A DNA stretch of 40,751 bases from Sphaeroforma arctica JP610 (taxonomy: Eukaryota). The DNA is taken from contig NW_014040406.1 in NCBI RefSeq assembly GCF_001186125.1, positions 1 to 40,751 on the forward strand, written 5' to 3'. The position numbers were made by a program, and so were the translations under genes. Below are positions 3,226 to 40,751 of this stretch, piece after piece (positions within the stretch are counted from its first letter, which is position 1; each line of letters starts with the position of its first letter). The notes under the pieces are model-generated. The model had not been told where the DNA came from and ran no database searches. It was given only the letters and a program-made list of their open reading frames with translations.

Positions 3226-3364
3226 ACGGTGTATATTCATAGCGCATAAAGTACCACAACGCCTTTAGAGGCACACGCGTATCGTCTCCGCAGAATACCA
3301 TTGATTTCCTATTGGTGTTAAACCTGACCCATACGCACATACACCTGTGATAGTATAAACTCGC

Positions 3365-4725
3365 CGCACACGACACTAGTGAGTATTCGGCAATCCACTG
3401 AGTGTAAATCAAGCACTCACAACACACGACACAAGTGAGTATGTATATCACAATCCACTGAGTATAAAGCAACCACTCAAAACACACAACACAAGTAAGT
3501 ATGTATCTCACAATCCACTGAGTATAAAGCAACCACTCAAAACACACAACACAAGTAAGTATGTATCTCACAATCCACTGAGTATAAACAACCGCTCACA
3601 GCACACGACAAAGGAAGTACGTATATCACAGTCCAATGAGTATACTACAACCACTCACACAACACGACACAAGTAAGTATATCATAATCCACTGAGTATA
3701 AAACAACCACTCACAGCACACGACACAAGTAAGTATGTATATCACAATCCAATGAGTATAAAACAAGCACTCACAACACACGACACCAGTGAGTATTCCG
3801 TAATCCACTTAGTATAAAACAATCACTCATAGCACACGACACAAGTAAGTGTGTATATCACAATCCACTGAGTATAAAACAAGCACTCCCAACACACGAC
3901 ACAATTAAGTATGTATATCACAATCCACTGAGTATAAACAACCACTCACAGCACACGACACAAACAAGTTTGTATATCACAATCCACTGAGTATAAAACA
4001 AGCACTCGCAACACACTATACAAGTAAGTATGTATATCACCATCTACTGAGTATAAACAACCACTCACAGCACACGACACAAACAAGTTTGTATATCACA
4101 ATCCACTGAGTATAAAACAAGCACTCGCAACACACTATACAAGTAAGTATGTATATCACCATCCACTGAGTATAAAACAGCCACTCACAGCACACGACAC
4201 AAGTATGTATATCATAATCCACTGAGTATGAAACAAGCACTCACAACACACGACACCAGTGAGTATTCCGCAATCCACTGAGTATAAAATAACCACTCAC
4301 AGCACACGACACAAGTAAGTATGTATATCACAATCCAATGAGTATAGAACAACCACTCACAACACACGACACCAGTGAGTATGCTTTTCACAATACAATG
4401 GCTATAGAAAAACCACTCACAGCAAACGACAGAAGTATGTATGTATTTTACACTTCACTTGGTATTAAACAACCACTCGCAACACACAGCCCAAGTAAGT
4501 ATGTATTTCACAATCCACTGACTATAGAACAACCACTCACAACACACGACACAAGTAAACAAGTTAGCATGTATTCCGCAATACACTGAGTATAAAATGA
4601 GCACACACAGCACACGACACAAGTAAGTTTGTATATCACAATCTACTGAGTATAAAGCAACCACTCACAGCACAGACCCAAGTCAGTATGTATATCACAG
4701 TCCAATGAGTATAAAACAAGCACTG
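3365..4725. repeat. ~59-60-bp tandem minisatellite, roughly 22-23 copies, intronic
   Basis: Unit approx. acaatccactgagtataaaacaaccactcacagcacacgacacaagtaagtatgtatatc, repeated head to tail. Confidence 0.95.
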
Positions 4726-4737
4726 GCACCGGGTTAC

Positions 4738-7700
4738 CTGTCTGCGCACTAGGCTCTCGCCCGTTAACAATGAGGATCCCATGTTGGGGTCGTATGTGGG
4801 CATGTTCAGCCGAGTATTAGAGGGACGGTACGCCATCAGTTCGCCAATAGACAGCCCGTGCATCTCTCTGGCTGCCGATTGGGCCGACTGAGGGGCTAGA
4901 CCCACAGGCATAGAGTTGGAGATACCCTGTGGATGTGGGGTGCGGGATATCGGTGGCGTACAGGCGGGGAGTGTAAATAGGTATCAATTGCGTGTGAACC
5001 ATGCGTGTGAGATATATTGTATATGAATTGTATACTATCGTCCATTGTACTAAAGCTATATAGCTAATCTCTCACCGGGATATGCGCTGCGTTTAACTTC
5101 CGTATTGTGCTGCATCTACTTTACTGGGGTAAGCTTGAACTTATGCTTCAAAGTTCAACTACTATAATGCTGATACCACTCACTTATTATGGGAGTGCTA
5201 TCCGAGCACACATATATATGTAACTACAGAGCCGTGTCAATAGCCTAGACGGTTGAGATGCCTTGAAGATGGGGAACGTGCATACCGTGAGGCCAGATGT
5301 AGATATAAGAAAGCAACGAAGTGTACAGCCACTCGTTTGGATATCAGCCCACCTCTGTAATACTTTCCACAAGATTTTGATGATTAATATATCGCTCGAC
5401 AAAACACACACCGTAGTCACCTCGTATACATTATCTTCTGTCCTTTACACTTAATATTGACTTCACAGCAGTGAGTGTAACACGCACACACGAACGTCAT
5501 CTCGAATACATTATCTTCTTACTTGAAAACTTACCATTGACTTCACAACAGAGAGTGCAACATACACGAAAGTCACCTCGTATATATTATCTTCTGCCCG
5601 TTAAACGTACCATTAATTCCACAGCTGTGAGTGTAACATACACACGAAAGTCATCTCGTATAAATTATCCTCTGCCCGTTAAACGTACCATTGATTTCAC
5701 AGCTGTAAGTGTACCATACACACGACAGTCATCTTGTATATACTACCTTCTGTCCTTACACTTACCATGGACTTGACAACCGTGAGTGTGTTTTTGCTTT
5801 CGGGTGCCACTGCGTCCATTTTGTTGTGTGCGTGTGAGTATCGTCGTAGGGGCTCAATCATCGCTCTGAAGTCGCGCGCAAGGTCTTCGGCCGCCTCACC
5901 CTGGTGTCACAAATTTGAGCGCAGTTGAGTGCTTTGTAGTAGTACATAGTACCAGGTGCTTTCAAGGCATATATATATATATATATATGAGTGTGTGTGT
6001 GTATATGTATCTGTATCTGCATCTGTATCTGTATCTGTATCTGTATCTGTATCTGTATCTGTATCTGTATCTGTATGTGTATGTATATGTGGATGTGGAT
6101 GTGTATGGGTATGTGTATGTTTTTGTGTGTTTGTGTGTGTGTGTATGTGTGTGTGTGGAATATATATACATATACCAAGTGATATTGTCGGTAGGTTTTC
6201 TCAGTGGATTACATCAGGAAGTTTGTATCCCAGGGCGGTACAGGTAATACGTACTCTGCATATTTCTCTGCAGGTGCAAACTCTGATGGTATGAAAGTCC
6301 AGACCCTGGGTTGATACATACTATAATATCAGTATGTATGACATTGCAGATAGTTAGAGAAAGCGAATAGACGACAAATTCCTTCTCCCTCACCAACTGG
6401 TGGACGTACTCACAAGATGAATGCGTGGAACTTACAACTGATGTTTCTACGTGGGAATCGAATTGCAAGGGTGTTGTGTTATTGCGTGCTATGTCAACGT
6501 ATAGCAGGCACATGCTATATTGGGCCTGGCTACACGTACTAGAGTACTACACTTCCGTATGCGAGCACAGCCTTATGCATCCCTCGCTCACGTTTACATC
6601 AATTGAGCATAACCTACACACAGAATAACTCATACACATACGCGCACATACCTTGACTGTTTCGTTCGCGCTTCTCTGCGCCTGCACCGCACTCTTCCAG
6701 AAGTCCGTCTTACCAGGGATAGGCGCAACCTCTTTAATCTTAAACATCAGCAACCCCATCAAGTATATACACACGATATTAATTACCGTCAGCAGGAAGC
6801 TCCATGCGCCCAGTAATGCCATCTCCGCACCGTCGACCGGGTTTGCTGGGTTGGCCAAAAACGGCCCTACGATTGCATACGCCCACAGAATACCAGCATT
6901 GACTGCCGGGGGCAGTAGGGAGGCTGAGATGGCCACACCTACGAGTGAGGATGTGTTGTTTCCTAATATAGACAGCGCTACTCCCGCACCCGACGGGATA
7001 GCGATGGTGATGGAGACCAAACACGCCTGCCACGTGCCGCGTGAGGACATCTCATTGGTGGGCCAACCCCACGAGTCGTAGCCCAGTGTACAGAACACTA
7101 AGCCGATGATGAAACCTGTGACCACGCACATGAGAAGGGAGACACACTCCATGAGGAAGCCGTGGCGCACCATCTTCCAGTCGAGGATGATAGACCCAAA
7201 GGTGAAGGCCAGGATGGGCCCCATGATGGGAGAGATAAGCATAGACGCTACTACGGCCACCACACTGTTGTGCACACAGAGGGGTGAGAGTTGTTTTCGG
7301 TGAGGATTGGGGCGGATGGGATAATGAGTTGTTGGTGGCGAACTCGGAGTTGCGTATGATTGAAATGTGATCCCGTAAACGTTAAGGACTGTTCTTTGCA
7401 ATGGTATACTCCTACTTAAACGGCAATTGTAACACGCCAATCGCATGCAATGCAATTTGTGGGGGAACACTCGCGTACCTGTTTGTGGCTAACCCCATTC
7501 CTGCAACAAACCCGGCGATAACCACCAACGACAAATAATCGAAGGTCATAGCTGCACCAGCTTCCACCTGAGCGAGTACCTTCTCCATCACCAAACGGGA
7601 ACGGACGCTTTCCTGTGTGAGTTTTGTATTGGACAGACAAAGTCGGTGTAGTGATTCGCAAGATATTTGTATGGTGTTGTGGACCGAAGTGTTGTTGAGT

Positions 7701-16226: not shown

Positions 16227-21721
<5,495 letters not shown>

Positions 21722-26339: not shown

Positions 26340-27750
26340 AAAATGCGCCGCATGACGAGCGCGTCATTCTTGATGTACGAGGTACTGAACATGGAATGAA
26401 AGCGTTTTTGGATCCGGGCTTGCAAATTTCAAGTATATCATCACGTTTCTGTAAGATAACTTATATGCGTAAATAAGAACCTACACGGTCGATTGTCGCA
26501 AAGGTGTTGCCACGAAGGCTGTCATCTGTATTACATCACCAGACTATGACTTGAAAGTAGGCTTGAGTGGATTGTTATCGATAGGTATATCCATTACTGT
26601 ATTACCCATGGACATTGATCCACAGAAAGATCAGTCAGACGACTACTTATTGAAGCGTGTATGAAAGCCTTCAAAAGCTGTGAAAGAGATGATACCTCAT
26701 TTCCCAGAGAAGCCAAAGGATTGTATTTTTGAAAATGATAAGATCAAAATGACAGATTGGGCTATGCCCACATTTAACAATGGATGTGTGAGCTTAGACC
26801 TGACCAAATGTAGATTTCTCGAAGCTCAAGTGTCCTACTCGCAACTATATCGGATGGGGTCATAAACAGATGGTCAGACGACAAGCTAAGGCCCGGTTGG
26901 AAGCCACCCCAGTAACCCTTCTACCCTTCGCCATGGACATTTCAATTCTGATGGAACCTTGAAGGTAGTACGAGTTTGATGAGATATGAGCCCGATTTAT
27001 GTGCTTATTCCAACACACAATTTTCACATACCTCGGAACGAATAGAGGGAGCTGTGATTTCCCCCACCATCGATCTAAAACAAGACTATCACCATATGAA
27101 TATATACGAACCACGCAGGAAGTACTTTACGTTTACCAAGGATGGACAACAGTAATATTTTAACTGCACCGTTGTTCTTCCAATTTATCATGCAATAATT
27201 CGAAACATGGATAACGAACACAAGTTCAAGATCAACAGCAGGGAATGTCACTCCGGAGTGACCGAAATGCAGCTGTTGGGATACGATGTATCGGGAGACG
27301 GGATCATGATCGATCTGGGGAAAATCGAGCACTTACTAGACTGATAACACCCACGACAGGACTGGATGTGAACAGCATGTGCGGTTTCGTCAATTACTTG
27401 TCGAATGGACTTTTCCATTTAGCAAGTTACCTTATGTCTTTTCGAGGTTTAAAATGTCACAAATGCAAATCAGAAGCTTTATGAATCAAGGTCTGTTGTG
27501 ACGATGATTTTAAGAAGCTCAAAACAGTGGTTTAACTGGCACCCGTAGTTTTGTTACAACAGGAGTCGGAGTACCGTTCATGATTGCAACAGATGCATCC
27601 GCCATGGTACTCGGAGGTCTAAAACTCTAAATCGGGAAATCAAGGTACGTGTTAGTTCTCTAGCAAAGTTGTGAACTCGTCCCAAATCGATTATTCAACT
27701 GTGCTACAATTGCGTTTAGCTATTGTGACTGCACTCTCACTACGTAGACA
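26340..27750 (+). pseudogene. Heavily decayed Ty3/Gypsy pol relic (protease, RT, RNase H)
   Basis: Manual translation: HDERVILDVRG...KAFLDPG (protease, ~26350-26460); ERIEGAVI..TIDLKQDYHHM..RKYFTFTKDG and KFKIN..ECHSGVTEMQLLGYDVSGDGI..TPTTGLDVNSMCGFVNYL (RT, ~27035-27400, YxDD region missing); GVPFMIATDASAMVLGG (RNase H, ~27568-27618). All are colinear with the intact neighbour's domains. The Pro-rich ORF at 25058-25327 may be a gag remnant. Confidence 0.8.
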
Positions 27751-27880: not shown

Positions 27881-28107
27881 TTGTAGAATTAGAGGGAGAG
27901 ATCGATGACTCATCGGACATCATCATAATTTAGGAACTATGAGAACAAAACCATAAATACGGGTATTTACAATCGACCCGTTGTTGAGAAAACCTCGCCC
28001 CAAATAAGAACGTGATTACTAAATACAGCAGGCGCGCCGTTAACGACACTTCTGACTGAGTTTACTTATTCAAACTTGATACTCTACTTAACGCTACTCG
28101 GTTTGAC

Positions 28108-28435
28108 TGTAGTGTATGGAGGGTAGCTGAAGGATACGAGACAAAGGAATATAATAGACCTCTTCTCAAGTACGGTTATCTCAGCTAGGAAAAGTCCCTA
28201 GTGTGAGAGAACCGAACTGAGTCTTAATTTGTGTTTCACTAGACTCAAGATTTACTTGAGTGTTTCTCTACACGCACACGAGAGTCCCGGTATAGCTTAC
28301 CGGTTCTACCGCTAATATATCTGATGACTCTAATATCAAAAATATTACAATCCTAATTCCAAAACTCAGTATTTGATTATTCTGGGTTTTGGGTTTTGGA
28401 TTGGCCTTTTGATAATCTGGTCCCTAGATGCTACA
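28108..28435 (-). repeat. 3' LTR (328 bp)
   Basis: About 93% identical by manual alignment to 36477-36802 (around 21 substitutions, 2 indels); TG...CA ends. Confidence 0.95.
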
Positions 28436-28447
28436 GCCCCCCAACTT
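28436..28447 (-). other. Polypurine tract (PPT)
   Basis: The - strand reads AAGTTGGGGGGC immediately before the 3' LTR start TGTAGC. Confidence 0.8.
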
Positions 28448-28810
28448 ATGCTTCTTAGCCTGCGTAGGAGTAGACAGTGAAATCTTACAGTACTAGATTA
28501 TCTAAAGGTTGGTGTTTGTATACAGGGAAAAACCTGTCCCTTAAGGGGCATAAGATGAAAAACTTGCCACCAGTATCTATTCTTACATGTTACCGATTAA
28601 TTAAATTTATACTATAGCAGGAGTTCTCTACCACGCTCATCGGAGTCGGTCTTGTCCGGTGCTCTCGGTTGATCTCAACTTGGCTTAAGAAAACGCATCT
28701 CAACGGTGGCTCTACAGCCGAGTCTCTGGTCCTTGTCCCTCTGGTGTATGGGGAGAGTATGCTTCTAGGCGAGAAAAGTGGGAGTATCCTGTGGTATCAG
28801 TGAGACTTGC

Positions 28811-30130
28811 TTAGGTCCCCCGCCGTGTGCGCTGTCTGTGGCTCGCTGATCTTTCATCAGTGTTCGTTATCCTTCTTTTACGTCTCCGGCGTTGACGGTA
28901 TGTTGTAATGACATCAGCATCTGCGATGTCTGATTCATGCGTCCAGGTACGCTCACCATCTGTCCAATGCAGTAGGTACTCCTGGGATCCATCCCCTCGG
29001 ATGGACGGCCTGTCTTCGACTATGAAGGAGAACTGAGTCTCTTCGTTTGGTTGTACGTGATTGTTGGAAGTAAATGCTTTCGGAGCACTGGCCCTTTTTA
29101 CGAGGCCAAGTAGCTCATCACTGATCGAGTCAGGATATTCGGGGGCTTTAGTCCCATCAAGGTTACAGACAAAATACCCATTGCCCTCCCTGCATACTAT
29201 TTTGTATGGTCCGTCATTTGGTGCCGTTAACTTATTCATTTCACCTTGATAGCGAACCATGACAAGGTCCCCTTCCTGGGAGTTTACATACTTCTTTTGA
29301 TACTTTCGATCGTATGCTGCGCGCATCTTCTCTTGATACTGTGCAACATTATTATCGAGTTGTGGCCTGCTAGATTTTGCAGTCGCTCTTCCTAAGATAC
29401 TGTTCTACTGGGTGCGGTCATTGGCTCATTGTAGTCCGTGAGTTGATTCTGTCTGCGACCAAAGTACACATTATAGCGCGGTGACTTGTGTCTTCTGGAT
29501 GTACGCAGATTATGGCCCATCTGTACGAATGGAAATCGTAAACACCAGTTACCTGGATTCTGTTCATCGAATTTCCGTAGCAGTAGCATGAGATCTCTAT
29601 GTGATCGTTCGTTCGCTCCTAAGACTTTAGGTTGACACGGCCGAGAGACTAAGTGTTGCATTGGCGCTTGTTCAACAACTTTTGCAAGTAATTCGTTAAC
29701 GTATTCAGTGCCTTGATCAGTTTGTATGATTTGTGGGAATCTATGTTCACACATAATTGGTACCAGCGTGCGTGCTATGTATGGTAGCCGCTGATTTGTC
29801 CATCCTTGAAGGTAAAATGACGTATGATTAGTATACGTCGAGCCATACTAACACATATGTGTGTCCTCTATTGGAGTCCAATAATGGACCTATGGTATCC
29901 ACTTGGACCCTGTCGCTTGGATATGCGGCTGTGATTGATTGTAAGGGGTGAAATCCCTTTTTGTGTATCTTATTTTTGAGACATGGTATGCATCCGTCAA
30001 TGAACTTATGTACATGTTGTTGGATATCAGGCCAATCATGTTCATCTGCTTGCAACTTTTGTACCGTTTCCCCAGGAGTGTAATGTCCCAGGTTGTGGTA
30101 TTGCTCGATGATGGTGACACGTGTCTCATA
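28811..30130 (-). pseudogene. DDE integrase with HHCC zinc finger, GPY motif and C-terminal chromodomain (28898-29032), frameshifted
   Basis: YHNLGH...CIPC; RVQVDTIGP; IIQTDQGTEY; GANERSH; GDLVMVR...GPYKI; IVEDR...EYLLHWTDGERTWTHESDI; spread over ORFs 29828-30454, 29392-29754 and 28811-29326. Confidence 0.92.
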
Positions 30131-30232: not shown

Positions 30233-30610
30233 TATTTTTGTGACTAGTGTGACGCCCCATGGGGTCTTGCCACAATCCTTCTTGCCCTCTTTGAGGAAAG
30301 TATTGTTTGTGTTTTCCACTAGCATCGGGTCCTCTTCTAATAAAGACAAGAACTTTGGAAACCACGATGCATTGGGGTAGTAGGGTGGTTGCCTCTTCAA
30401 TGACTTTGTCAAGGACATCAGGTATGAGTTCCCATGGCGGATTCGCCCATGCATTCACTTCCTGCGCTCGATTTTTTTGTAGCGCATACTGTTCTTTGGT
30501 GTAGTATTCATCTGTGTGTGTATTGTGTGCTGATGCAAACAGATCTACTGTGAACTTCCCAAACCGTCGTTCCGCTCCTTGGTAGAATCTGGGATGTAAC
30601 ATCCAGTCTA
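30233..30610 (-). pseudogene. Dam/DIRS-type amino (probably N6-adenine) DNA methyltransferase domain within pol
   Basis: DWMLHPRFY...FGKFTVDLFASAHN...YYT...WANPPWELIPDVLDKVIEE, then after a frameshift near 30385 PYYPNASWFPKFLSLL..P...TFL...PW. DLFAS is at 30531-30545 and NPPW at 30432-30443. Confidence 0.85.
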
Positions 30611-30675
30611 TAGCTGATATGGTTATGGGCATGTTCGTTTCCAAGGTGGTGTACTCTTGGCTGTTATGTGTTGCC

Positions 30676-31939
30676 TCATTCGCTTGTTACTTTTGACTCT
30701 TTCGTACTAAAAGTATCTTTATGGAGACGCGACAACCTGTCTGCCATCTGGTTGTCCTTGCCCGGGACATGTATGATGGAGAAAGGGTGGTGGAACGTTT
30801 TTGCTCTCCATTTGGCTAGCATTGGGTGTAACGTCTGTTGACTGTTCATTTGCGTGAGCGCTTTGTGATCTGTCCACAGTGTTATGTCCCCCCTTTTGAT
30901 GTATTCTGAGAAATGTTCCAGGCTGTATGCTAGTGCTAGTAGCTCTTTGGTATTTGTGCCATAGCGTTGTTGTGCTGGATTCAAGTCTTTTGAGAAGTAG
31001 AGTATTTCTCTTCTAACTACATCGATGACTTGAAATAAACATCCTCCTATGCCATAGCCACTAGCATTCTTCATTATTTGAAACGGTACCCCGTCAACAG
31101 GGTATGCTAGCGTCGCTGAACAGGCGATGGCTTCTTTGAGTTCTTCCCACTTCTGTTTGAGTTCCGGAGTCCATAACATGGATATGTTCTGGTTCATTTT
31201 TCCTTTCATTAGGTTCCGAAAGTGTTTCGTTGTGTGGGCAAAGTTAGGGACATGTCCTCGCATGTAATGTGCTAGTCCCATTGCTTTGTGCAGATCTCTT
31301 TTTGTTCTGGGTAGTGGCCAGTCCATCATTCTTTTCTGTTTCTCAGGGTCTGCTTTGATTCCCTGTGTGGTGACTTTCACACCGAGTATGTTGACCACTT
31401 TGACCGCGAAGGCACACCTGTTGTGATTGAGTCGGAAGTTTGCTCCATTCAGTCGCTTGATTACTTCACGAACTGTTTTGCGGTGTTTTTTCCTCCGTAA
31501 GACTTGCAATGACTATGTCGTCTACATACACTTGCGCTCCTTTGATGTCTATGAGCAGATTTGCCATGACTCTTTAAATTTATGCTGTGAGTGAGTGTAG
31601 TCCAAACGGCGCGGACTTGAATGAATATTGCGTTCCACTCCACGAGAATGTGAAGAAGTGTTGGCTTGCTTCGTCTACCAGGAAATTGTGAAATCCTCCT
31701 GTAAGATCTTGCTTCGAAAAGAATTGTGCTCTTTGGAGGTTATATAATACTTCCTTTATTTTCGGTAACACAAATTTATCTTGCTCATATTGATAATTGA
31801 TCTCACGTAAGTCTAGACATGTTCTTACTTTCTTGAGGAGGCCTGTTTGGTCATGTTCACCTGTTGATATCAACGGTAGGTTCGCCGTTGTGGGTGTGTC
31901 ACGTTTGTATATGTGACCATCCTTAAGCCACCTTTGCAC
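30676..31939 (-). pseudogene. Reverse transcriptase and RNase H
   Basis: KVRTCLDLREIN, FFSKQDLTGGFH, APFGL; YVDD at 31517-31528 (in frame with ORF 31580-31939, beyond a premature stop); RH motifs PFQIMKNASGYGIGG (catalytic D apparently lost), KELLAL, WTDHKAL, GKDNQMADRLSR. Confidence 0.93.
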
Positions 31940-32166
31940 ATTCTCACCCGTTTGTGGATATATTTGTGAGGTACAAAATTGACTTTAGCGTGCCTCATTT
32001 GTCTGACGTTGATTCCATTTGCGGGTACTGTGACTGTGGAGCCTGGTAGGTTGCAATATACATCAGGAGGTATATTCGCATTGGTATCTAAAAGGTCTGT
32101 AAGCGACTCTCTGAAACCTTCTTGTTCATGCTCTGGGTCCTCTTCATGTGGTGTGAGGAGTGATTC

Positions 32167-32628
32167 TCATTTTGAATCTGTGGGTTTAAGTGGATTGATT
32201 AACCCTGCTATGCATATACTTATGTATGGTAGAATGTCCATACCTAGAAGTATTGGTGTCTTTTTGTCAGGTAAGTCCAATACTTCAAAACACTGAGAGG
32301 TCTTCCTACCTCCATAGTTAATGTCACAAACTTCTGTTGATCCAGTGCGTTGTATTCTTGCATCTGTTTGTGCTAGTTGTATATATCTCGGTTGCGCTCT
32401 AACAGAAAGATATAGTTCTGATACTATACTTTTGTCCATGCATGAGCGTTGTGCGCCCGAGTCTACTAGTGTATTGTATGTATTGCTATTGATTTGTATG
32501 TCAATGTGTAAACGTTGGTCTCGTGGTGCGGGAAGTAAAGATAAAGGTTGATAATTTATATCATATGCATTTATTAACAAAGTTTCTTTATCTGTAAATA
32601 CATTGAGTCTGTCAGCCAGGTCAATCAT
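32167..32628 (-). pseudogene. Retropepsin (aspartic protease)
   Basis: TLVDSGAQRS catalytic motif and PILLGMDIL. Confidence 0.9.
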
Positions 32629-32652
32629 GTTTGCTTCCGCCCACCAGTGTTT

Positions 32653-34089
32653 TCAGTGCTCATCACTTTCTGTGATGTCTTCCACCTTGCCAGATGTAAT
32701 GGACAGTATTGCTTTCTGCACATCTTTCTTGGCTCGCTGCTCAGCCTTCTTGGCTTGATTTGCTTTCTTCTCGGGATATTCGCTGTACCGATGTGGGGAT
32801 GGCATTACCAGGCAGTAGGGGCATGCACGCTCTTCACGTGCTCCCTTCTTCTTCTGTGTCTGCCCCCCCTTGCTTGTTCTGGTTGTGTGCACCATTGTCT
32901 GGCTTGTGCCGTTTATTAGCGTTCGTAGAGTTTTCCTCAACTGATGTGGTTGTCTGTGCGTTGTTGCGCTTGTTTTGTGCACGCACCTGATCCCTCAACA
33001 TACGCTCTGCTTGTGTCACAGCCGCCTTCTTATGTGTGTCTCAGTCATAGTATGCAACTTGGTGTGTTCTATGTCTGACAAGTGCCCTTCACTCCCATCT
33101 GGTTGCTTATCTCCTTTGATGAGGGTATCTACCACTGGTTGCAGTCCATAGTACTTAAGTGCCTGGTACCTTTGTACTTTGAGGATTTGGAAGTGTATGG
33201 GTTCCTTGTCTGAGTCGCGGTAACGCTCCTCTAACATCGCCATTGTCTTGTGCACACGCTCTGTGCGCACTTCGACGTTCATTTTCTTATTCTGCAAGTC
33301 ATTGAGAAACTTCTCCAACAGATAGTCTACTGGATGTGGTCTAAGTCGATCAATAATGATTCTATTGAATTGCTCAGGATCTTTGATGTGCTTAGTCGCA
33401 TGTGTCTCATAGTCTCTTAAGTTATTGAGTACTGATTTTGTTTTCTCCGTTGCATCAGTAGAATCCAGTAAGCTTCTTACTAATGCTGGGTACTGACACA
33501 AAGGCATGGACTTTGCTAAGAATATGTCACTACACTGTGTAGTGAACTCTAAAATGTCTTCGCAGTTTTCCATTCTAAAGTAACTATCTTTAGGCATTTT
33601 AGGAAATTCAGAAGTCTTCAGTAGTTTCGCAAGTGGTGGCTCATTTATCTGATCGCCCAAGCGTGAACGCATGAGCTCTAACTCACTAATGTATAGACTT
33701 ATTTGGATGAGTTGATCTTCTTCATCATCACCACAGTCATTGATCGCATGGTCATATCGTCGTCTGAGCTCTGCATCCACTAGTGGCATGCGGCGCTCTG
33801 GCTGTTGATCATAGATGCCTACCCTCATCTTGTGTAGAGTTGGTATGGGCACCGGTGCTGTTTGTTCCAACTTGGACACAAACCGACTCACCATAACATG
33901 ATTGCATTGACAGATATTCTTGTCTATTTCTAGACGCATTGCTGACGCTACGATGGGTACCCCCGCCGGTGTAGGTTGGCCCGAACTATTGCCTGGGCTT
34001 GGCCCCCCCATTGGGCTGACTCCCACGTCATCCGCGCCTTCACTCCCTTCCTCCCCACCGTACACGCCTGCTCTGGTTGCTGTTGGCAT
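32653..34089 (-). pseudogene. gag (frameshifted), with a degenerate zinc knuckle
   Basis: A 357-aa ORF in the gag position continues through ORFs 32834-33019 and 32653-32982; CPYC-x6-H-x4-Y is a CCHC-like knuckle lacking the last Cys. Confidence 0.75.
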
Positions 34090-36476
34090 TTTCAGAAGTC
34101 TGCGTTTTAGTTAGTGGATTATTAATAAAGACTCTGGTTATGTTTTGAAACCCTATAATACGGTAGCTTGTTGCTTTGTTCCCTGTATTTATGAGGGTTA
34201 AAAACTGTGTTTGTTAGTCAAGCTTATTCCGTCACGTGTGACGTCACTTATGCTTATTCCGTCATCTGAGAAAATAATTCCTCATGTGCGTTCTCAATGA
34301 GATGTTCGGTGCTAGTGATGTCACCGAAGAAGTTCGGTCCTGTTGACGTCACCTCTTGATGTTCGGTATCGTACCGAACAGTATGGTTCTTGTATCGAAC
34401 TGTGACTCTGTCGGATATATCCTGTTTTGTATAGACTATACTTTGTCGGAATGTTCACTCAATTTGACCCCACTTTATATCATTGCCCGTGTGTACATGT
34501 GTCATTGTCACTCTGTAGGTCTTATATACTCTGTAGGTCTTATATTCCTGTGTACTAGACGTCTACACTAAGCGTGTGCGTGATGGTTATACTTCTTAAT
34601 TGTTATGAAGTTATACCGTGCTTGCATCAACTATGTGCGGGGCTTATGTGTGTCCTGCGTGATTGCTTTGGTCGGAATCTTATGTGTGCGAATTCCATTT
34701 ACTGTGGGTCCTCAACCTTGTTGTGACATTCGATTCCATGTATTGGATCTTTGTTGTCGAGGTCTTGTGCGTATCTAGTACCCTGTTATTGTTCTGTTCC
34801 TATTGCAGGAAGTCTGTGTTTGTAATGGTTTCTGCCATTACTTTTCGATGTACAATGGTGTGTAGCATTTCGATACTGTTAATACCGTGCGTAGTAATCA
34901 GGTTTTATCGTTGCTAACATTCTTGATGTATCTGTGTGAATGTCTTGACAATGAGAACTATTCTTGTGCCCCCTTTTTTACTTAGACTTCTTTCTTTTAT
35001 TGATCGTTGTGTGGCATTGATTATGCCAGATCTGATTTCAGTAAGTCGGTCACTTGTCTATGTTCCCTGTCAATTGTATGTGTTTATTATCACTTGTCTA
35101 GTAATTGCTATGCAGTTCTTACTCGTGATTCCTTGTCTTATGTTTATTCTTAATATCGATATCTTGTCGTATATGTGTGTATATAATCTAATATCAATCG
35201 ATATGATTTGAATGCTTGTGCAAACTGTCGTGATGAACGTTGGCTTCCTTATGTGCTAGTTTGTGCTTGTATCTAGTATAGCGAATAGATTATATGTGTG
35301 TTATGAGTTCTATTGTGGACTCTTTGTTCTTGAAAAGGTAGTAATAGATGCTATCTTGTGATTCTGTGCTTTTGTTAGTTAAGACCGGTCCTTACGATGT
35401 TTTTGGATGCTCATCGCATTCAATCGTATTCTTGGCAGGCCAATTACTTTGAAAGCTGTATTCATATGTAAATGCTTCTTGGGGTCTTTGCAAACCCGTC
35501 ATCATACCAAGTATTCGTATGCTCATCGCATTCGATTTTAATTTTTGGGAGAACATTTACTTCTGAAAGCTAGACTTGTATTTTTGATGCTCTGTCTTTT
35601 CGTTTTGTTTCTGTCAATCTCGAATCTGAGATTTGATGACCGAAATGCTTGTGAATGCTCTTGAAATTGATATTTGGTGCTTGTGCATCTTACAATATCT
35701 GTGATTCTCATTATGTTTTGTTGTGTTTAGTGAGGTGTGAATGATTTATCATTGTCTTTGTGTGCCACTATTGTCTTGTGCGTGTCTACTTGTGTCTATG
35801 TTTGCGCAGATGTTCTAAACGAGCTGTTTTGTGTCATATGTTTACTGCTATTGTTCTGTATATGATAACTGAGTGAGGTGGTATGGTGTCTTTTTGTGAT
35901 TGTGACACCAGGATATTTTCTTGTCCGAAAACTTAGAAAAATCTCTAACCTTGATTAAATGATCATTGTGACAGCTCTTCCCTTTTTTCACTGTTTTAGC
36001 CTCCTTACTTCACAAGTTTTCACTGGAACACGTTCTTAAGTGCACTGCAACTATTCCGATGGTTCTGAACGCGTTACTCGTACCTGAGTGTCATAGAGCA
36101 CCACGTTCCCGTACGTTACAGTTGTACACACACTCTGGGTCACCTGGCCTAAATGTTACCCTAGAGCACAACCCTTAGTGGCTTACTTCCACTTCTGGGA
36201 ACAATTACCCGAGGATGATTCTCCCTCTTCTTGTACCGTAGGGTGCTCCTTGTCCACTCCGGTTCTTGTACGCTGTGGTTACCCGTGTATCTGCTCTTGC
36301 TTTCACGGAATTATTCAGTCTTGCCTCAGCATTGCTCAGCTGTCTTAGTTTTTTAATGGAAATAAAGTTATTCTTCTACTGCGGTATTTTAGTTATTGAC
36401 TATACTATTACTTGCGGTAGCCTTTGCACAGCCTTGAGCTAGTTGACTTGTCTATAAGGATATTGTATTAAAAAAA

Positions 36477-36802
36477 TGTAGAGTATGGAGAGTAGCTGAA
36501 GGATATGAGACAAAGGAATACAATAGACCTCTTCTCAAGTACGGTTATCTCAGCTAGGAAAAGTCCCTAGTGTGAGAGAACCGAACTGAGTTTTTATCTG
36601 TGTTTTTACTAGACTCGAGATTTACTTGAGTGTTTCTCTCGCACGTGGGAGTCCCGGTATAGCTTACCGGTTCTACCGCTAATATATCTGATAACTCTAA
36701 TAACAGAAATATTCCAATCATATTTCCAAAACTCAGTATTTGATTATTCTGGGGTTTGGGATTTGGATTGGCTTTTTGATAATCTGGTCCCTAGATGCTA
36801 CA
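36477..36802 (-). repeat. 5' LTR (326 bp)
   Basis: Direct repeat of 28108-28435, followed by the TSD TGAC. Confidence 0.95.
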
Positions 36803-37290
36803 TGACTACATTTTATGTGACCAAGCTACTGTATTTATTACGTTACGTACTTTACAACAGGCTAAGTGAACTAAAATCAAATTAGCTTTATAATTTTGTT
36901 ACTACGAGGAATGAATATACTACGTGGACAAGGAAACCTGTCTTCGATTGTTGAAACTACTGCTTAAAATTCATCGACAATTGCCTTTGCTCAGGGTTAA
37001 GGTATAAACAACGTTTTCCACTGATCTGGCACCGGGTGTTAAAGCTAAGACAGAAGTCCGTGTTAGGCTAGCCTGACTAGTATTTGAAACTTAACAATCG
37101 ATTTCTACGTTGGCTGAGGCCAAACAAATTATTGAAGGGGTTATCGACCGAGATGACCACTTGGGGATGATAGCAAATGTACAGGAAGATACGGAGATTA
37201 TTTTGCTTTTTCAGCTACCACTTCCCGAATTTCGTGAATTTCCAATGTAATGGAGTTGGCTCGACTCAAGACAATGGCACGGTCTAGATG

Positions 37291-37759
37291 ACGTCGGGCT
37301 ATGTAACAGATAGCGTAACCGACATCACCTCGTTGGGCTTTGTGACACCCGACGCGGACTCGCAACCCTTTAAACAATGGGGTGAACATTATGGAATAAT
37401 TCAGCCCAGTGAAGTACAGAGTTGTTCGCACGGATCCTGTTCTTTACGTTACTATTACGTTAATGAATCCTGTTATTCGTTCAATACGTTAATGTTCACA
37501 TTGCTAGCTGAAACAGGATCAGGCAATGGCACGTCGGGCTACGCAACAGATAGCGCAACCGACACCGCCACGTTGGGCTCTGTAACACCCGACGCGGACT
37601 CGCAACACTTCAAACAATGGGGCCTACATTATGAAATAATTCAGCCCAATGAAGTGCAGAGTTGGTCGCACGGATCCTGTTCTTTACGTTGCTATTACGT
37701 TAATGAATTCTGTTATTCGTTCAATACGTTAATGTGCACATTGCTCGCTGAAACAGGAT
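37291..37759. repeat. 240-bp tandem duplication (2 copies)
   Basis: 37291-37519 vs 37531-37759, exact period 240, no indels seen; it produces an 80-aa repeat in ORF 37288-37935. Confidence 0.92.
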
Positions 37760-39058: not shown

Positions 39059-40751
39059 TTACACACTACAAAGGGTCAAAGGCGCTTTAAGGCAGTGAAA
39101 GGCTACATGAGGCGAAGAAGTTAAGTGTTCTCGGTTACCCTGTGAGTTTTGTTTACCAGTAGGTCCGTGGTGGTCGACTGGACGTTCCTTACGCTTCAAT
39201 GTCTTAAGCACATATGAAGAATGAGCATCAAGGCTCGGGATAAATGCTGTAGGCGGATAAGTTTTAACTTCCATTCCTTCAGCCGATGGAAACATGCTAT
39301 CTTTTTCAGCTTGTGACTTATGCAGGCGTTTACGGCATTTTCGATTAAAGGCTTTTAAATAGTCTTGGTTATCGAAAGCATCTGAAGTCAACTCAGCTAT
39401 TGTACCGTCTATAAAGCGTGTACGATAGTATGTATAGCCTCCCTTATCCATTCTCCATATAATGTCTTTAAATTCAGAACGATCAAGAGGGGCATTAGAG
39501 TCATGTCCTCTTGCGAGTATAATCTCTGTAGTCGGAATACGACTTGTGCCTATATTAAGCGCACTAGAACCATCGGGGTTATTTACCTCGTATGTTCCAC
39601 TTTTAGTGTCTGCTACAGAGATTATGTATGGACCTATCCATTTAGATGTTAATACAGTAGCATCGGAATTACGTTGACGGATGTTAACTCTGTCACCAAC
39701 CTGATATTCGGCTATCTTCTTGGTTGTGTTCCAACGCTTTTGCCTTTTTAATAAGGCTATATTGCGTATTTCTCGCAAGCAAGGATATACAACGTTATAA
39801 ATACGTTGGACCTTCTCTAACCATGGTAACTCATGGTGATCGGGTTCGTCCTTGTTAAAAGGGATTTGTAACTCACTATATCTGCCACGAAAATAGTGAG
39901 CGGGTGTAGTTCCTGTAACAGGATCATCACACTCGTTCATCTGTGTTTGTACCCACTTAAGGTGGTACGGCCAATCATCTGCATCATCCGTTAATGTAGT
40001 ACGCAAGAAGAACTTAAGTCTTCTATGGCGTGTTTCATTCGCGCCTTGCGTTTGCGGCATATATGGCACACCTCTCTTATGGCATATGCCTGATACGAGT
40101 ACTAGCGATTCCATTACGTCATCGCAGAACTCACTACCGTTATCAGTGTACATAATACCTGGCCACCCGTGGTCAGCAAAGACTTGGCAACATAATTCTG
40201 CCACGGTCTGCGTATTCTTATTCTTTAATGGATAGAGCAAGTTAAACTGTGACGCCACATCAAAGAAGTGGCATACGTAACGGTCGCCTGTGTGCTCAGA
40301 CGTGGGCAGGTCAACCAGATGAATGATGACCCAGCGCCATGGAACATCTTCAGTCACACTCTTAAGCGGTGCGAAACCATAGCGCTTGATCTGATTGAGA
40401 TCACAGTCTGTGCATGACTGATATACTTTGTCAACTAAAGTTGCCAGCTTAGGGTGGGCGATCCCATGTCGCTTAGCATCTTTAAGTGCTTCTACTACGG
40501 TTTGGTGCTTCAGCTTATGATGTTGCTTCAGCCAAGCAAGAATGTTTTCATCATTCTGCTCGTCCATTATAAAGGTAGGGTGTTGAGAATCTTGCGTGGT
40601 CTCTAAGTCTGTAGTGTTTTCAGACTCTTGTCCTGTTTTTGCATGAGCGTCATAATCGCGCTCATGTGCGTTAGATACACCTGACTTATTAAATAGTCGC
40701 ATTATATGTGTATACGCTTCAGGATTGTCTTTCATTAATCCCTTTAAAAAT
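39059..40751 (-). mobile_element. 3' part of another Ty3/Gypsy pol: RNase H end, integrase and degenerate chromo-like tail; truncated by the window edge
   Basis: 558-aa ORF with HHKLKH...CTDC, VIIHLV (first catalytic D appears as H), MYTDNGSEF, GANETRH, GDRVNIR...WIGPY and DIIWR..YYRTRF. Confidence 0.9.

What the first reader, a model, noticed from the sequence alone, without database searches (positions are those of the whole stretch)
30233..30610. Ty3/Gypsy element carrying a Dam-like DNA methyltransferase between RNase H and a DDE integrase
Seen: a ~125-aa domain lies between the RH end (GKDNQMADRLSR) and the integrase HHCC finger. It has DW..., a SAM-binding-like DLFAS..N, an intact amino-MTase motif IV (NPPW), L I..VL.K, and P.yP...WFP.f..LL...P. 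Established: this motif string matches the phage-Dam-like MT domain found after RH in DIRS1-type tyrosine-recombinase retrotransposons, whereas canonical Ty3/Gypsy pol is PR-RT-RH-INT(-CHD). Here the carrier is clearly an integrase element (direct LTRs, TSD, PPT, DDE, chromodomain). Inference: this LTR lineage captured an amino-methyltransferase and may methylate (6mA or 4mC) its own cDNA or insertion site, for example to mimic active-gene 6mA or evade silencing. This copy is frameshifted. I cannot tell whether the architecture has already been reported.
Basis: partly seen in the sequence, partly recalled or inferred. Interest (0 to 1): 0.92.

Follow-up and report, generated by a model that had tools for sequence, protein, structure and literature searches.

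The report
Decayed methylase-carrying gypsy retrotransposon, hidden chromodomain
This is a broken copy of a gypsy-type jumping gene, likely from a single-celled relative of animals, whose replication protein contains an adenine-methyltransferase-like domain; a 2026 preprint already described this kind of element, but this lineage also carries a divergent chromatin-reader (chromo) domain that the preprint says it lacks.

Summary
A dead 8.7-kb Ty3/Gypsy element (minus strand; LTRs 92% identical; 4-bp TSD) has a Dam-like amino-methyltransferase domain between RNase H and integrase (Pfam PF05869, E=2.6e-12; NPPW intact). Two 1,288-aa relatives carry PR-RT-RH-Dam-integrase in one open frame. The domain is conserved like its neighbours (80% against 43-50% for three nearby linker/tail stretches) and folds as an N6-adenine methyltransferase, closest to PCIF1 (Z 10.2). 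The nearest named relatives are from Sphaeroforma arctica and Abeoforma whisleri. The scan has noted DAM-LTRs on other DNA before. So it is already known. Catalysis and substrate remain unshown.

The parts
36477..36802 (-). 5' LTR (TG...CA)
   Evidence: blastn 304/329 identical to the 3' LTR; K2P distance 0.068 over 325 columns
36803..36806 (.). Target-site duplication TGAC, right copy
34111..36476 (-). About 2.4-kb leader with no long ORF; a T7 run, not a TGG tRNA-type primer site, follows the LTR
   Evidence: no tblastn hit with 13 pol proteins
32656..34110 (-). Probable gag (364-aa ORF plus broken continuation); named by position only
   Evidence: no Pfam hit; ORFs
32170..32652 (-). Aspartic protease (DSGA at 32463-32452)
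   Evidence: PF13975 E=3.3e-11
31370..31954 (-). Reverse transcriptase, broken (YVDD at 31528-31517); ends approximate
   Evidence: RVT_1 E=4e-4 on one fragment; 83% identical to P0002
30727..31075 (-). RNase H (first catalytic motif altered in this copy); start approximate
   Evidence: PF17917 E=1.5e-22
30233..30611 (-). Dam-like amino-methyltransferase domain: DW, DLFAS, NPPW (30443-30432), WFP, TPWG; frameshifting deletion near 30385
   Evidence: PF05869 E=2.6e-12; phrog_111; motifs; fold of an intact relative
29981..30097 (-). Integrase HHCC zinc finger
   Evidence: PF17921 E=4.4e-08
29395..29902 (-). Integrase DDE core, broken
   Evidence: rve E=1.4e-4 on a fragment; 69-76% identical to P0002
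29090..29290 (-). Integrase C-terminal SH3-like region with GPY motif; ends approximate
   Evidence: alignment with SH3_Tf2-1-bearing P0019; beta-barrel matches
28877..29040 (-). Divergent chromodomain, lacking the first and third cage aromatics
28436..28450 (-). Short purine tract (G6) just before the 3' LTR
28108..28435 (-). 3' LTR
28104..28107 (.). Target-site duplication TGAC, left copy

Best explanation
This is a dead copy of a Ty3/Gypsy retrotransposon, likely of the ichthyosporean DAM-LTR lineage, whose intact relatives encode protease, reverse transcriptase, RNase H, a Dam-like methyltransferase domain, integrase and a divergent chromodomain in one frame; the methyltransferase likely marks adenines of the element's own nascent DNA. 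Shown: domain order, open frame in relatives, conserved NPPW, methyltransferase fold (predicted model), chromodomain likeness, and decay of this copy. Inferred (about 45% for the whole chain): the roughly 140-aa domain has no evident target-recognition domain, so being tethered in Pol would supply its substrate. It would use SAM to N6-methylate adenine on the cDNA or RNA:DNA intermediate inside the particle. Integrase, possibly steered by the chromodomain, would insert the marked copy, and the host's AMT1 would maintain 6mA, giving the copy active-gene-like chromatin and more transcription. The confidence given is for the identification.
For: Pfam Dam E=2.6e-12. P0001 and P0002 (1,288 aa) and P0170 carry RT-RH-Dam-H2C2-rve in one frame, P0001/P0002 also PR. 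10 of 27 long hits scanned show the order RH-Dam-integrase. MT identity P0001/P0002 is 112/140 (80%) against 15/34, 7/14 and 12/28 for the MT-INT linker, pre-chromo linker and tail; P0001/P0170 is 82/140 (59%) against 9/34, 2/14, 2/28. AlphaFold model of the P0002 domain: pLDDT 92.9; top matches are N6-adenine methyltransferases. In the MT tree, 15 rows including S. arctica P0003 and A. whisleri P0017/P0011/P0015 form one side of a branch (95/90), and the RT tree groups the corresponding 12 rows (SH-aLRT 83): consistent with joint inheritance of MT and RT. The preprint reports more 6mA and expression on DAM-LTRs than on other LTRs in S. arctica and A. whisleri, and 9 of 13 DAM-LTR species encoding AMT1.
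Against: The preprint's heterologous DAMs did not raise 6mA in dam-minus E. coli. Its 6mA enrichment is correlative and could come from host AMT1 acting on transcribed copies. The closest solved fold is PCIF1 (Z 10.2), then rRNA methyltransferases (Z 8.4-9.2); T4 Dam is at Z 8.0. Iyer et al. (PMC4738411, passages read) derive the DIRS domain from PCIF1 and call DIRS copies likely inactive. The host is not proven: the best runs hold only 59% of the element's words, and the neighbouring DUF389 gene's best hit is Amoebidium parasiticum at 60%, with no Sphaeroforma protein among the 120 listed. The 15-row group was defined from an earlier quick tree of the same data, and no Repbase reference RTs were in the trees.
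Confidence: 0.85

Rival explanations
1. The domain is an RNA N6-adenine methyltransferase of PCIF1 type. It would modify the element's own genomic RNA (for example the cap-adjacent adenosine or the RNA strand of the hybrid), aiding stability, packaging or escape from RNA silencing, and the 6mA on DAM-LTR DNA would come from host AMT1.
For: PCIF1 is the top structural match in both searches (Foldseek E=1.3e-4; Z 10.2, rmsd 3.0, 135 aligned), followed by KsgA/DIMT1/Erm RNA enzymes. PMC4738411 places DIRS MTases in the PCIF1 clade. The E. coli DNA assay was negative.
Against: Sequence profiles tie it to phage DNA methyltransferases (PF05869, phrog_111), and the preprint's tree roots the eukaryotic clade among prokaryotic DAMs. 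The Z gap to the next match is only 1.0, and a shared fold shows no substrate. PCIF1's cap-binding helical domain is not part of this 140-aa domain (PCIF1 is aligned over residues 234-652 with only 135 matched).
Confidence: 0.25
2. The domain is kept as a non-catalytic module that binds nucleic acid, SAM or a host factor (for example recruiting AMT1), not as an enzyme.
For: No activity has been shown for any eukaryotic DAM. Many relatives among the 152 aligned domains carry FPP in place of NPP. Earlier scan notes describe Gypsy carriers with a lost catalytic motif (not checked here).
Against: All 15 rows of this element's clade keep NPP followed by W or F, and the D of D-x-F/M-A, across lineages whose RTs differ by more than one change per site; such conservation fits catalysis.
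Confidence: 0.25
3. The segment is a one-off DIRS fragment that landed in this copy.
For: The copy is broken on both sides of NPPW, and many homologues are DIRS-like RT-RH-MT proteins without integrase.
Against: Intact in-frame fusions at the same position in P0001, P0002, P0170 and Abeoforma P0017; depth of laid contigs runs through the domain in all 30 bins in 4 of 4 runs; the MT groups with LTR carriers, not with the DIRS-like rows.
Confidence: 0.01

Closest known systems
Ichthyosporean DAM-LTR lineage (Fernandez-Moreno et al., bioRxiv 10.64898/2026.05.21.726589; whole main text read, figures and supplements not seen)
   Same: Ty3/Gypsy element with a PF05869-type DAM domain; nearest named relatives are EukProt proteins of S. 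arctica (P0003 78%, P0004 68%) and A. whisleri (P0017, P0011, P0015), two of the three species named for the lineage; NPP triplet conserved.
   Different: The preprint says the lineage lacks chromodomains; here a divergent chromodomain is found in the window and across the clade, Abeoforma included. The text does not state the RH-Dam-integrase order for this lineage (it may be in Fig. 2B, not seen).
DIRS1-type tyrosine-recombinase retrotransposons with an MT domain (PMC4738411 passages; preprint introduction)
   Same: Same methyltransferase family, placed right after RNase H.
   Different: Carrier has direct LTRs, a TSD, protease and a DDE integrase after the domain; no tyrosine recombinase hit in the 9 element fragments scanned.
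PCIF1/CAPAM cap-specific adenosine methyltransferase (PDB 6irx, 6irv)
   Same: Closest solved fold (Z 10.2, rmsd 3.0, 135 residues).
   Different: 14-18% identity; no large helical insert or WW domain; substrate of the element's domain unknown.
Group II chromovirus chromodomains (PMC3350952, passages read)
   Same: Integrase C-terminal chromodomain that keeps W45 but lacks Y24 and Y48 (window, P0001, P0002, P0170).
   Different: That paper reports group II only from plants. Abeoforma P0017 keeps an aromatic at the first position, so the loss may be convergent. No tree of chromodomains was built.

Membership tests
Ty3/Gypsy LTR retrotransposon | Direct LTRs with TG..CA ends and a short TSD | tested here: met
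Ty3/Gypsy LTR retrotransposon | Order PR-RT-RH-integrase, with HHCC and DDE | tested here: met
Ty3/Gypsy LTR retrotransposon | RT groups with reference Ty3/Gypsy RTs | tested here: inconclusive
   RT tree separates 18 rows (integrase carriers and their fragments) from 16 integrase-less rows (98), but held no named reference elements
Ty3/Gypsy LTR retrotransposon | tRNA-type primer-binding site and polypurine tract | tested here: inconclusive
   G6 tract present; a T7 run instead of TGG follows the 5' LTR
DAM-LTR retrotransposons | PF05869 DAM domain at E<1e-5 within an integrase-encoding pol | tested here: met
DAM-LTR retrotransposons | Asn-Pro-Pro catalytic triplet with following aromatic | tested here: met
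   NPPW in window and relatives
Ichthyosporean DAM-LTR lineage | DAM domain groups with those of S. arctica and A. whisleri | tested here: met
   with names; the preprint's own alignment was not available
Ichthyosporean DAM-LTR lineage | Ichthyosporean host | tested here: inconclusive
   likely: nearest named element proteins are S. arctica, neighbouring gene's best hit is Amoebidium parasiticum at 60%; species not shown
Ichthyosporean DAM-LTR lineage | No chromodomain at the preprint's threshold (hmmsearch E 1e-5); a descriptive remark, not the basis of the clade | tested here: met
   Pfam Chromo E=0.028, 0.015, 0.0042 for window, P0001, P0170; no row for P0002. More sensitive tests do find the domain
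Ichthyosporean DAM-LTR lineage | Raised 6mA and expression of insertions | not testable with these tools
   no methylation data on hand
Chromovirus | Chromodomain at the integrase C-terminus | tested here: met
   first 21 of 24 PDB sequence hits are chromodomain proteins; top fold match Z 8.0; profile test
Chromovirus | RT falls in the chromovirus clade | not tested
   no reference chromovirus RTs were on hand
DIRS1-like retrotransposon | Tyrosine recombinase instead of DDE integrase; inverted or split repeats | tested here: not met
   DDE integrase, direct LTRs and TSD
Active DNA N6-adenine methyltransferase | SAM-dependent methylation of DNA adenine | not testable with these tools
   published E. 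coli test of relatives was negative

The most novel reading that the evidence does not exclude
Ichthyosporean DAM-LTRs are cryptic writer-plus-reader elements: a PCIF1-like methyltransferase that marks the element's own RNA or RNA:DNA intermediate (which would explain the failed dsDNA assay), joined to a cage-less, group II-like chromodomain so far known only from plants that steers integration into 6mA-marked active chromatin. The same methyltransferase was also captured by Ty1/Copia elements, at two different positions, extending the phenomenon beyond Gypsy and DIRS.
Probability: 0.2. Interest if true: 0.65.

Novelty: already known. Interest (0 to 1): 0.27.

Why it matters
Retrotransposons that carry their own adenine methyltransferase may write an 'active gene' mark on new copies in hosts that use 6mA. 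That idea and this lineage are in a May 2026 preprint, so the copy itself adds little. It matters modestly in three ways: it corrects the published architecture (a chromodomain is present, so reader and writer co-occur in this lineage too); two intact 1,288-aa polyproteins give ready substrates for the still-open activity test in a culturable host group; and the PCIF1 match says which substrates the assay should include.

Tried and rejected
No whole genome is held for this window, so no genome-wide copy count or dN/dS could be made; protein identity per domain served as a proxy. phmmer of the MT fragment against PDB sequences gave 0 hits; the profile of alignment A1 hit only RNase H chains, from flanking columns. 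Foldseek of the SH3-plus-chromo model gave no match at E<=0.001 (best 0.016), though most listed rows are chromodomains; that model used an 8-row alignment that included three rows with chromodomains above Pfam's cut-off (P0019, P0034, P0132), so it is not independent of them, whereas one search is. No RNA holder was listed among sequencing runs; this says nothing on expression. A read-based look at the whole element, including the long leader, was not obtained, so whether the leader is conserved in the family is open. Self-priming was considered: only a 9-nt AT-rich match between the region after the 5' LTR and the LTR was found; not significant, no control run. ApT is not enriched in the element (observed/expected 1.0; CpG 0.71). 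In the chromodomain profile test, 3 of 11 clade representatives did not score: P0006 (-2.1 bits), P0015 (1.4, ends inside the domain) and P0018 (none; its longer cluster members score 6.4-10.0). Literature searches for earlier reports found only the preprint for Dam in Gypsy elements; PMC6338049 (passages) assigns DAM to DIRS; PMC9289625 (passages) had nothing on it. The library lacks most subscription papers and Repbase. Rows left out of trees: hits without at least 125 aa of RT core; P0058, P0060, P0046, P0004 and the window's half-domain.

Full report
Observation. The window is eukaryotic DNA rich in AT/GT microsatellites. An 8.7-kb element lies on the minus strand between two LTRs, 28108-28435 and 36477-36802, 304/329 identical, with TG..CA ends, a 4-bp TGAC duplication on both sides and a G6 tract before the 3' LTR; the LTRs differ by 13 transitions and 8 transversions over 325 columns (K2P 0.068). 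Pfam finds protease, RT, RNase H, Dam (PF05869, E=2.6e-12, 47.2 bits, cut-off 28.1), integrase zinc finger, rve and a weak Chromo, in that order. PHROGs agrees on the methyltransferase (phrog_111, 5.4e-12). The copy is dead: 6 frame changes and 5 stops against the intact relative P0002, including one shift in the RH-MT linker and one short deletion after the NPPW helix.

Is the domain a family trait? Yes. Searching with the N-terminal half found 3 longer proteins among 18 candidates. P0001 and P0002 are 1,288-aa open frames with PR-RT-RH-Dam-H2C2-rve, and P0003 is S. arctica SARC_00333 (78% identical). P0170 (995 aa) has the same order from RT on. The catalytic motifs of PR, RT, RH and integrase are intact in these. 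Between P0001 and P0002 the MT is 80% identical (112/140), against 94-95% for RT and RH, 91% for the integrase core, 67% for the zinc finger, 77% for the RH-MT linker and 43-50% for the MT-integrase linker, pre-chromo linker and tail. Between P0001 and P0170 it is 59%, like RT (58%), while those three stretches fall to 7-26%. Contigs of 4 public runs cover the RH-MT-integrase stretch in all 30 bins and show extra letters at the 30385 break, so the break is not the family state.

Wider kin. HMMER over 1.84 billion representatives gave 162 hits, 150 listed. I scanned 27 of them, chosen for length: 10 show RH-Dam-integrase, two more Dam-rve, and five have other orders (Dam before PR in P0037, after integrase in P0058, after an endonuclease in P0145, and two Copia-type polyproteins, P0039 and P0140). 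Of 152 aligned domains, NPPW/NPPF/NPPY dominate and FPP occurs in a minority. The RT tree splits 16 integrase-less, DIRS-like rows (my label, from architecture) from 18 LTR-type rows (98), and puts the window's family with A. whisleri P0017 and P0011 in a 12-row group (83). The careful MT tree has the matching 15 rows on one side of a branch (95/90); that group was first read off the quick tree, so this is a support check, not a blind test. MT and RT thus appear to have been inherited together.

Fold. The P0002 domain, folded on a 55-row alignment, gives pLDDT 92.9 and pTM 0.87. Foldseek's three matches at E<=0.001 are all PCIF1/CAPAM. VIA-align ranks PCIF1 first (Z 10.2, rmsd 3.0, 135 aligned), then DIMT1, KsgA and Erm (8.4-9.2), T4 Dam (8.0), M.TaqI and E. 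coli Dam (7.7). It is a minimal amino-methyltransferase core; the fold does not tell DNA from RNA.

Host. Likely an ichthyosporean, probably Sphaeroforma: the closest named element proteins are S. arctica P0003 and P0004, and the DUF389 gene at 6550-7488 has Amoebidium parasiticum as best hit, at 60%. The species is not shown; the best runs hold 59% of the element's words.

What is known. The first literature search returned bioRxiv 10.64898/2026.05.21.726589, whose main text I read whole (figures and supplements not seen). It claims the first identification of DAM domains in non-DIRS LTR retrotransposons, defines five lineages, among them an ichthyosporean one in Pirum gemmata, A. whisleri and S. 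arctica, reports more 6mA and expression on DAM-LTRs than on other LTRs in the latter two, finds no activity in dam-minus E. coli, and proposes methylation of reverse-transcription intermediates followed by AMT1 maintenance. Iyer et al. (PMC4738411, passages) earlier put DIRS MTases in the PCIF1 clade, which fits my fold result and differs from the preprint's prokaryotic origin. The scan's own notes list 23 similar findings in at least 3 other genomes (unchecked).

What is added. The preprint says the ichthyosporean lineage lacks chromodomains. At its threshold that is so (Pfam Chromo E=0.004-0.03). But the 59-aa window segment 28877-29053 hits chromodomain proteins in the first 21 of 24 PDB rows (best E=2.7e-5). 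It aligns with true chromodomains at invariant I, Y, W, W. A profile built from five chromodomains outside the clade scores the window at 12.3 bits and 8 of 11 clade representatives at 4.0-21.6 bits, Abeoforma P0017 highest, against at most -1.2 for 16 DIRS-like controls and 1.3 for 100 shuffles. The model has three strands and a helix and matches chromodomains best (Z 8.0, rmsd 2.1, 54 aligned). It is 89% identical between P0001 and P0002. By alignment to P0019, the window's family keeps the cage tryptophan but lacks the first and third aromatics (my reading), the pattern that PMC3350952 (passages) defines as group II and reports only from plants. Its ligand is unknown. Separately, 'copia' and 'Ty1' do not occur in the preprint's text, a paper search for Dam plus copia gave one unrelated listing, and the scan's notes hold none with all those words, yet P0039 and P0140 are RVT_2 polyproteins with NPPW-bearing Dam domains that group together (100/98). 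Their DNA and hosts were not examined.

Mechanism and verdict. Best reading: a family of integrase elements that keeps a catalytically intact-looking methyltransferase tethered in Pol, likely to put 6mA on its own new copies so that the host treats them as active genes (identification 0.85; full mechanism about 0.45). Rivals: RNA substrate (0.25) or non-catalytic role (0.25); a one-off insertion is excluded. The finding is real and striking, but already described, in this very host group. Interest 0.27, for the chromodomain correction and the sharper substrate question.

Noticed in passing
proteins P0039 (Dam at 656-727 of 1838 aa) and P0140 (787-874 of 1583 aa): Ty1/Copia-type polyproteins (RVT_2, SH3_retrovirus) with an NPPW Dam-like domain, between protease and integrase in P0039 and between integrase and RT in P0140; sister rows in the MT tree. 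Not mentioned in the DAM-LTR preprint text; possibly an undescribed Copia-Dam group. Hosts unnamed.
   Followed up: partly
protein P0145 (2144 aa; cluster of 5): Order endonuclease/exonuclease/phosphatase - Dam - RT - RNase H - integrase zinc finger in one frame; P0037 has Dam before protease, P0058 after integrase, so the domain's position in pol varies.
   Followed up: no
window 26506-27739, + strand: Heavily decayed PR-RT-RH remnant of a second Gypsy family, best matched by DAM-LTR protein P0006 (35-42%, E=2e-60); it breaks off within RNase H, before a Dam domain would lie.
   Followed up: partly
window 39260-40751, - strand: Open frame of a third Gypsy element running off the window: HHCC, rve (E=2.2e-6), GPY motif and a chromo-like tail seen by eye; no Dam hit in the part held.
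   Followed up: partly
window 34111-36476: About 2.4-kb leader between 5' LTR and gag with the same strong A-rich strand bias as the coding part but no long ORF; might be a decayed extra gene. A T7 run replaces the usual TGG primer site.
   Followed up: partly
window 6550-7488, - strand: Host gene exon of family DUF389 (E=2.4e-31); best hit Amoebidium parasiticum, 60%.
   Followed up: partly
window 37291-37759: Two tandem 229-nt copies, 91% identical, 240 nt apart, inside a 215-aa + strand frame without a clear Pfam hit.
   Followed up: no
window 3299-4729, 5403-5723, 18473-18944: Minisatellite arrays with units of about 60, 78 and 45 nt.
   Followed up: no
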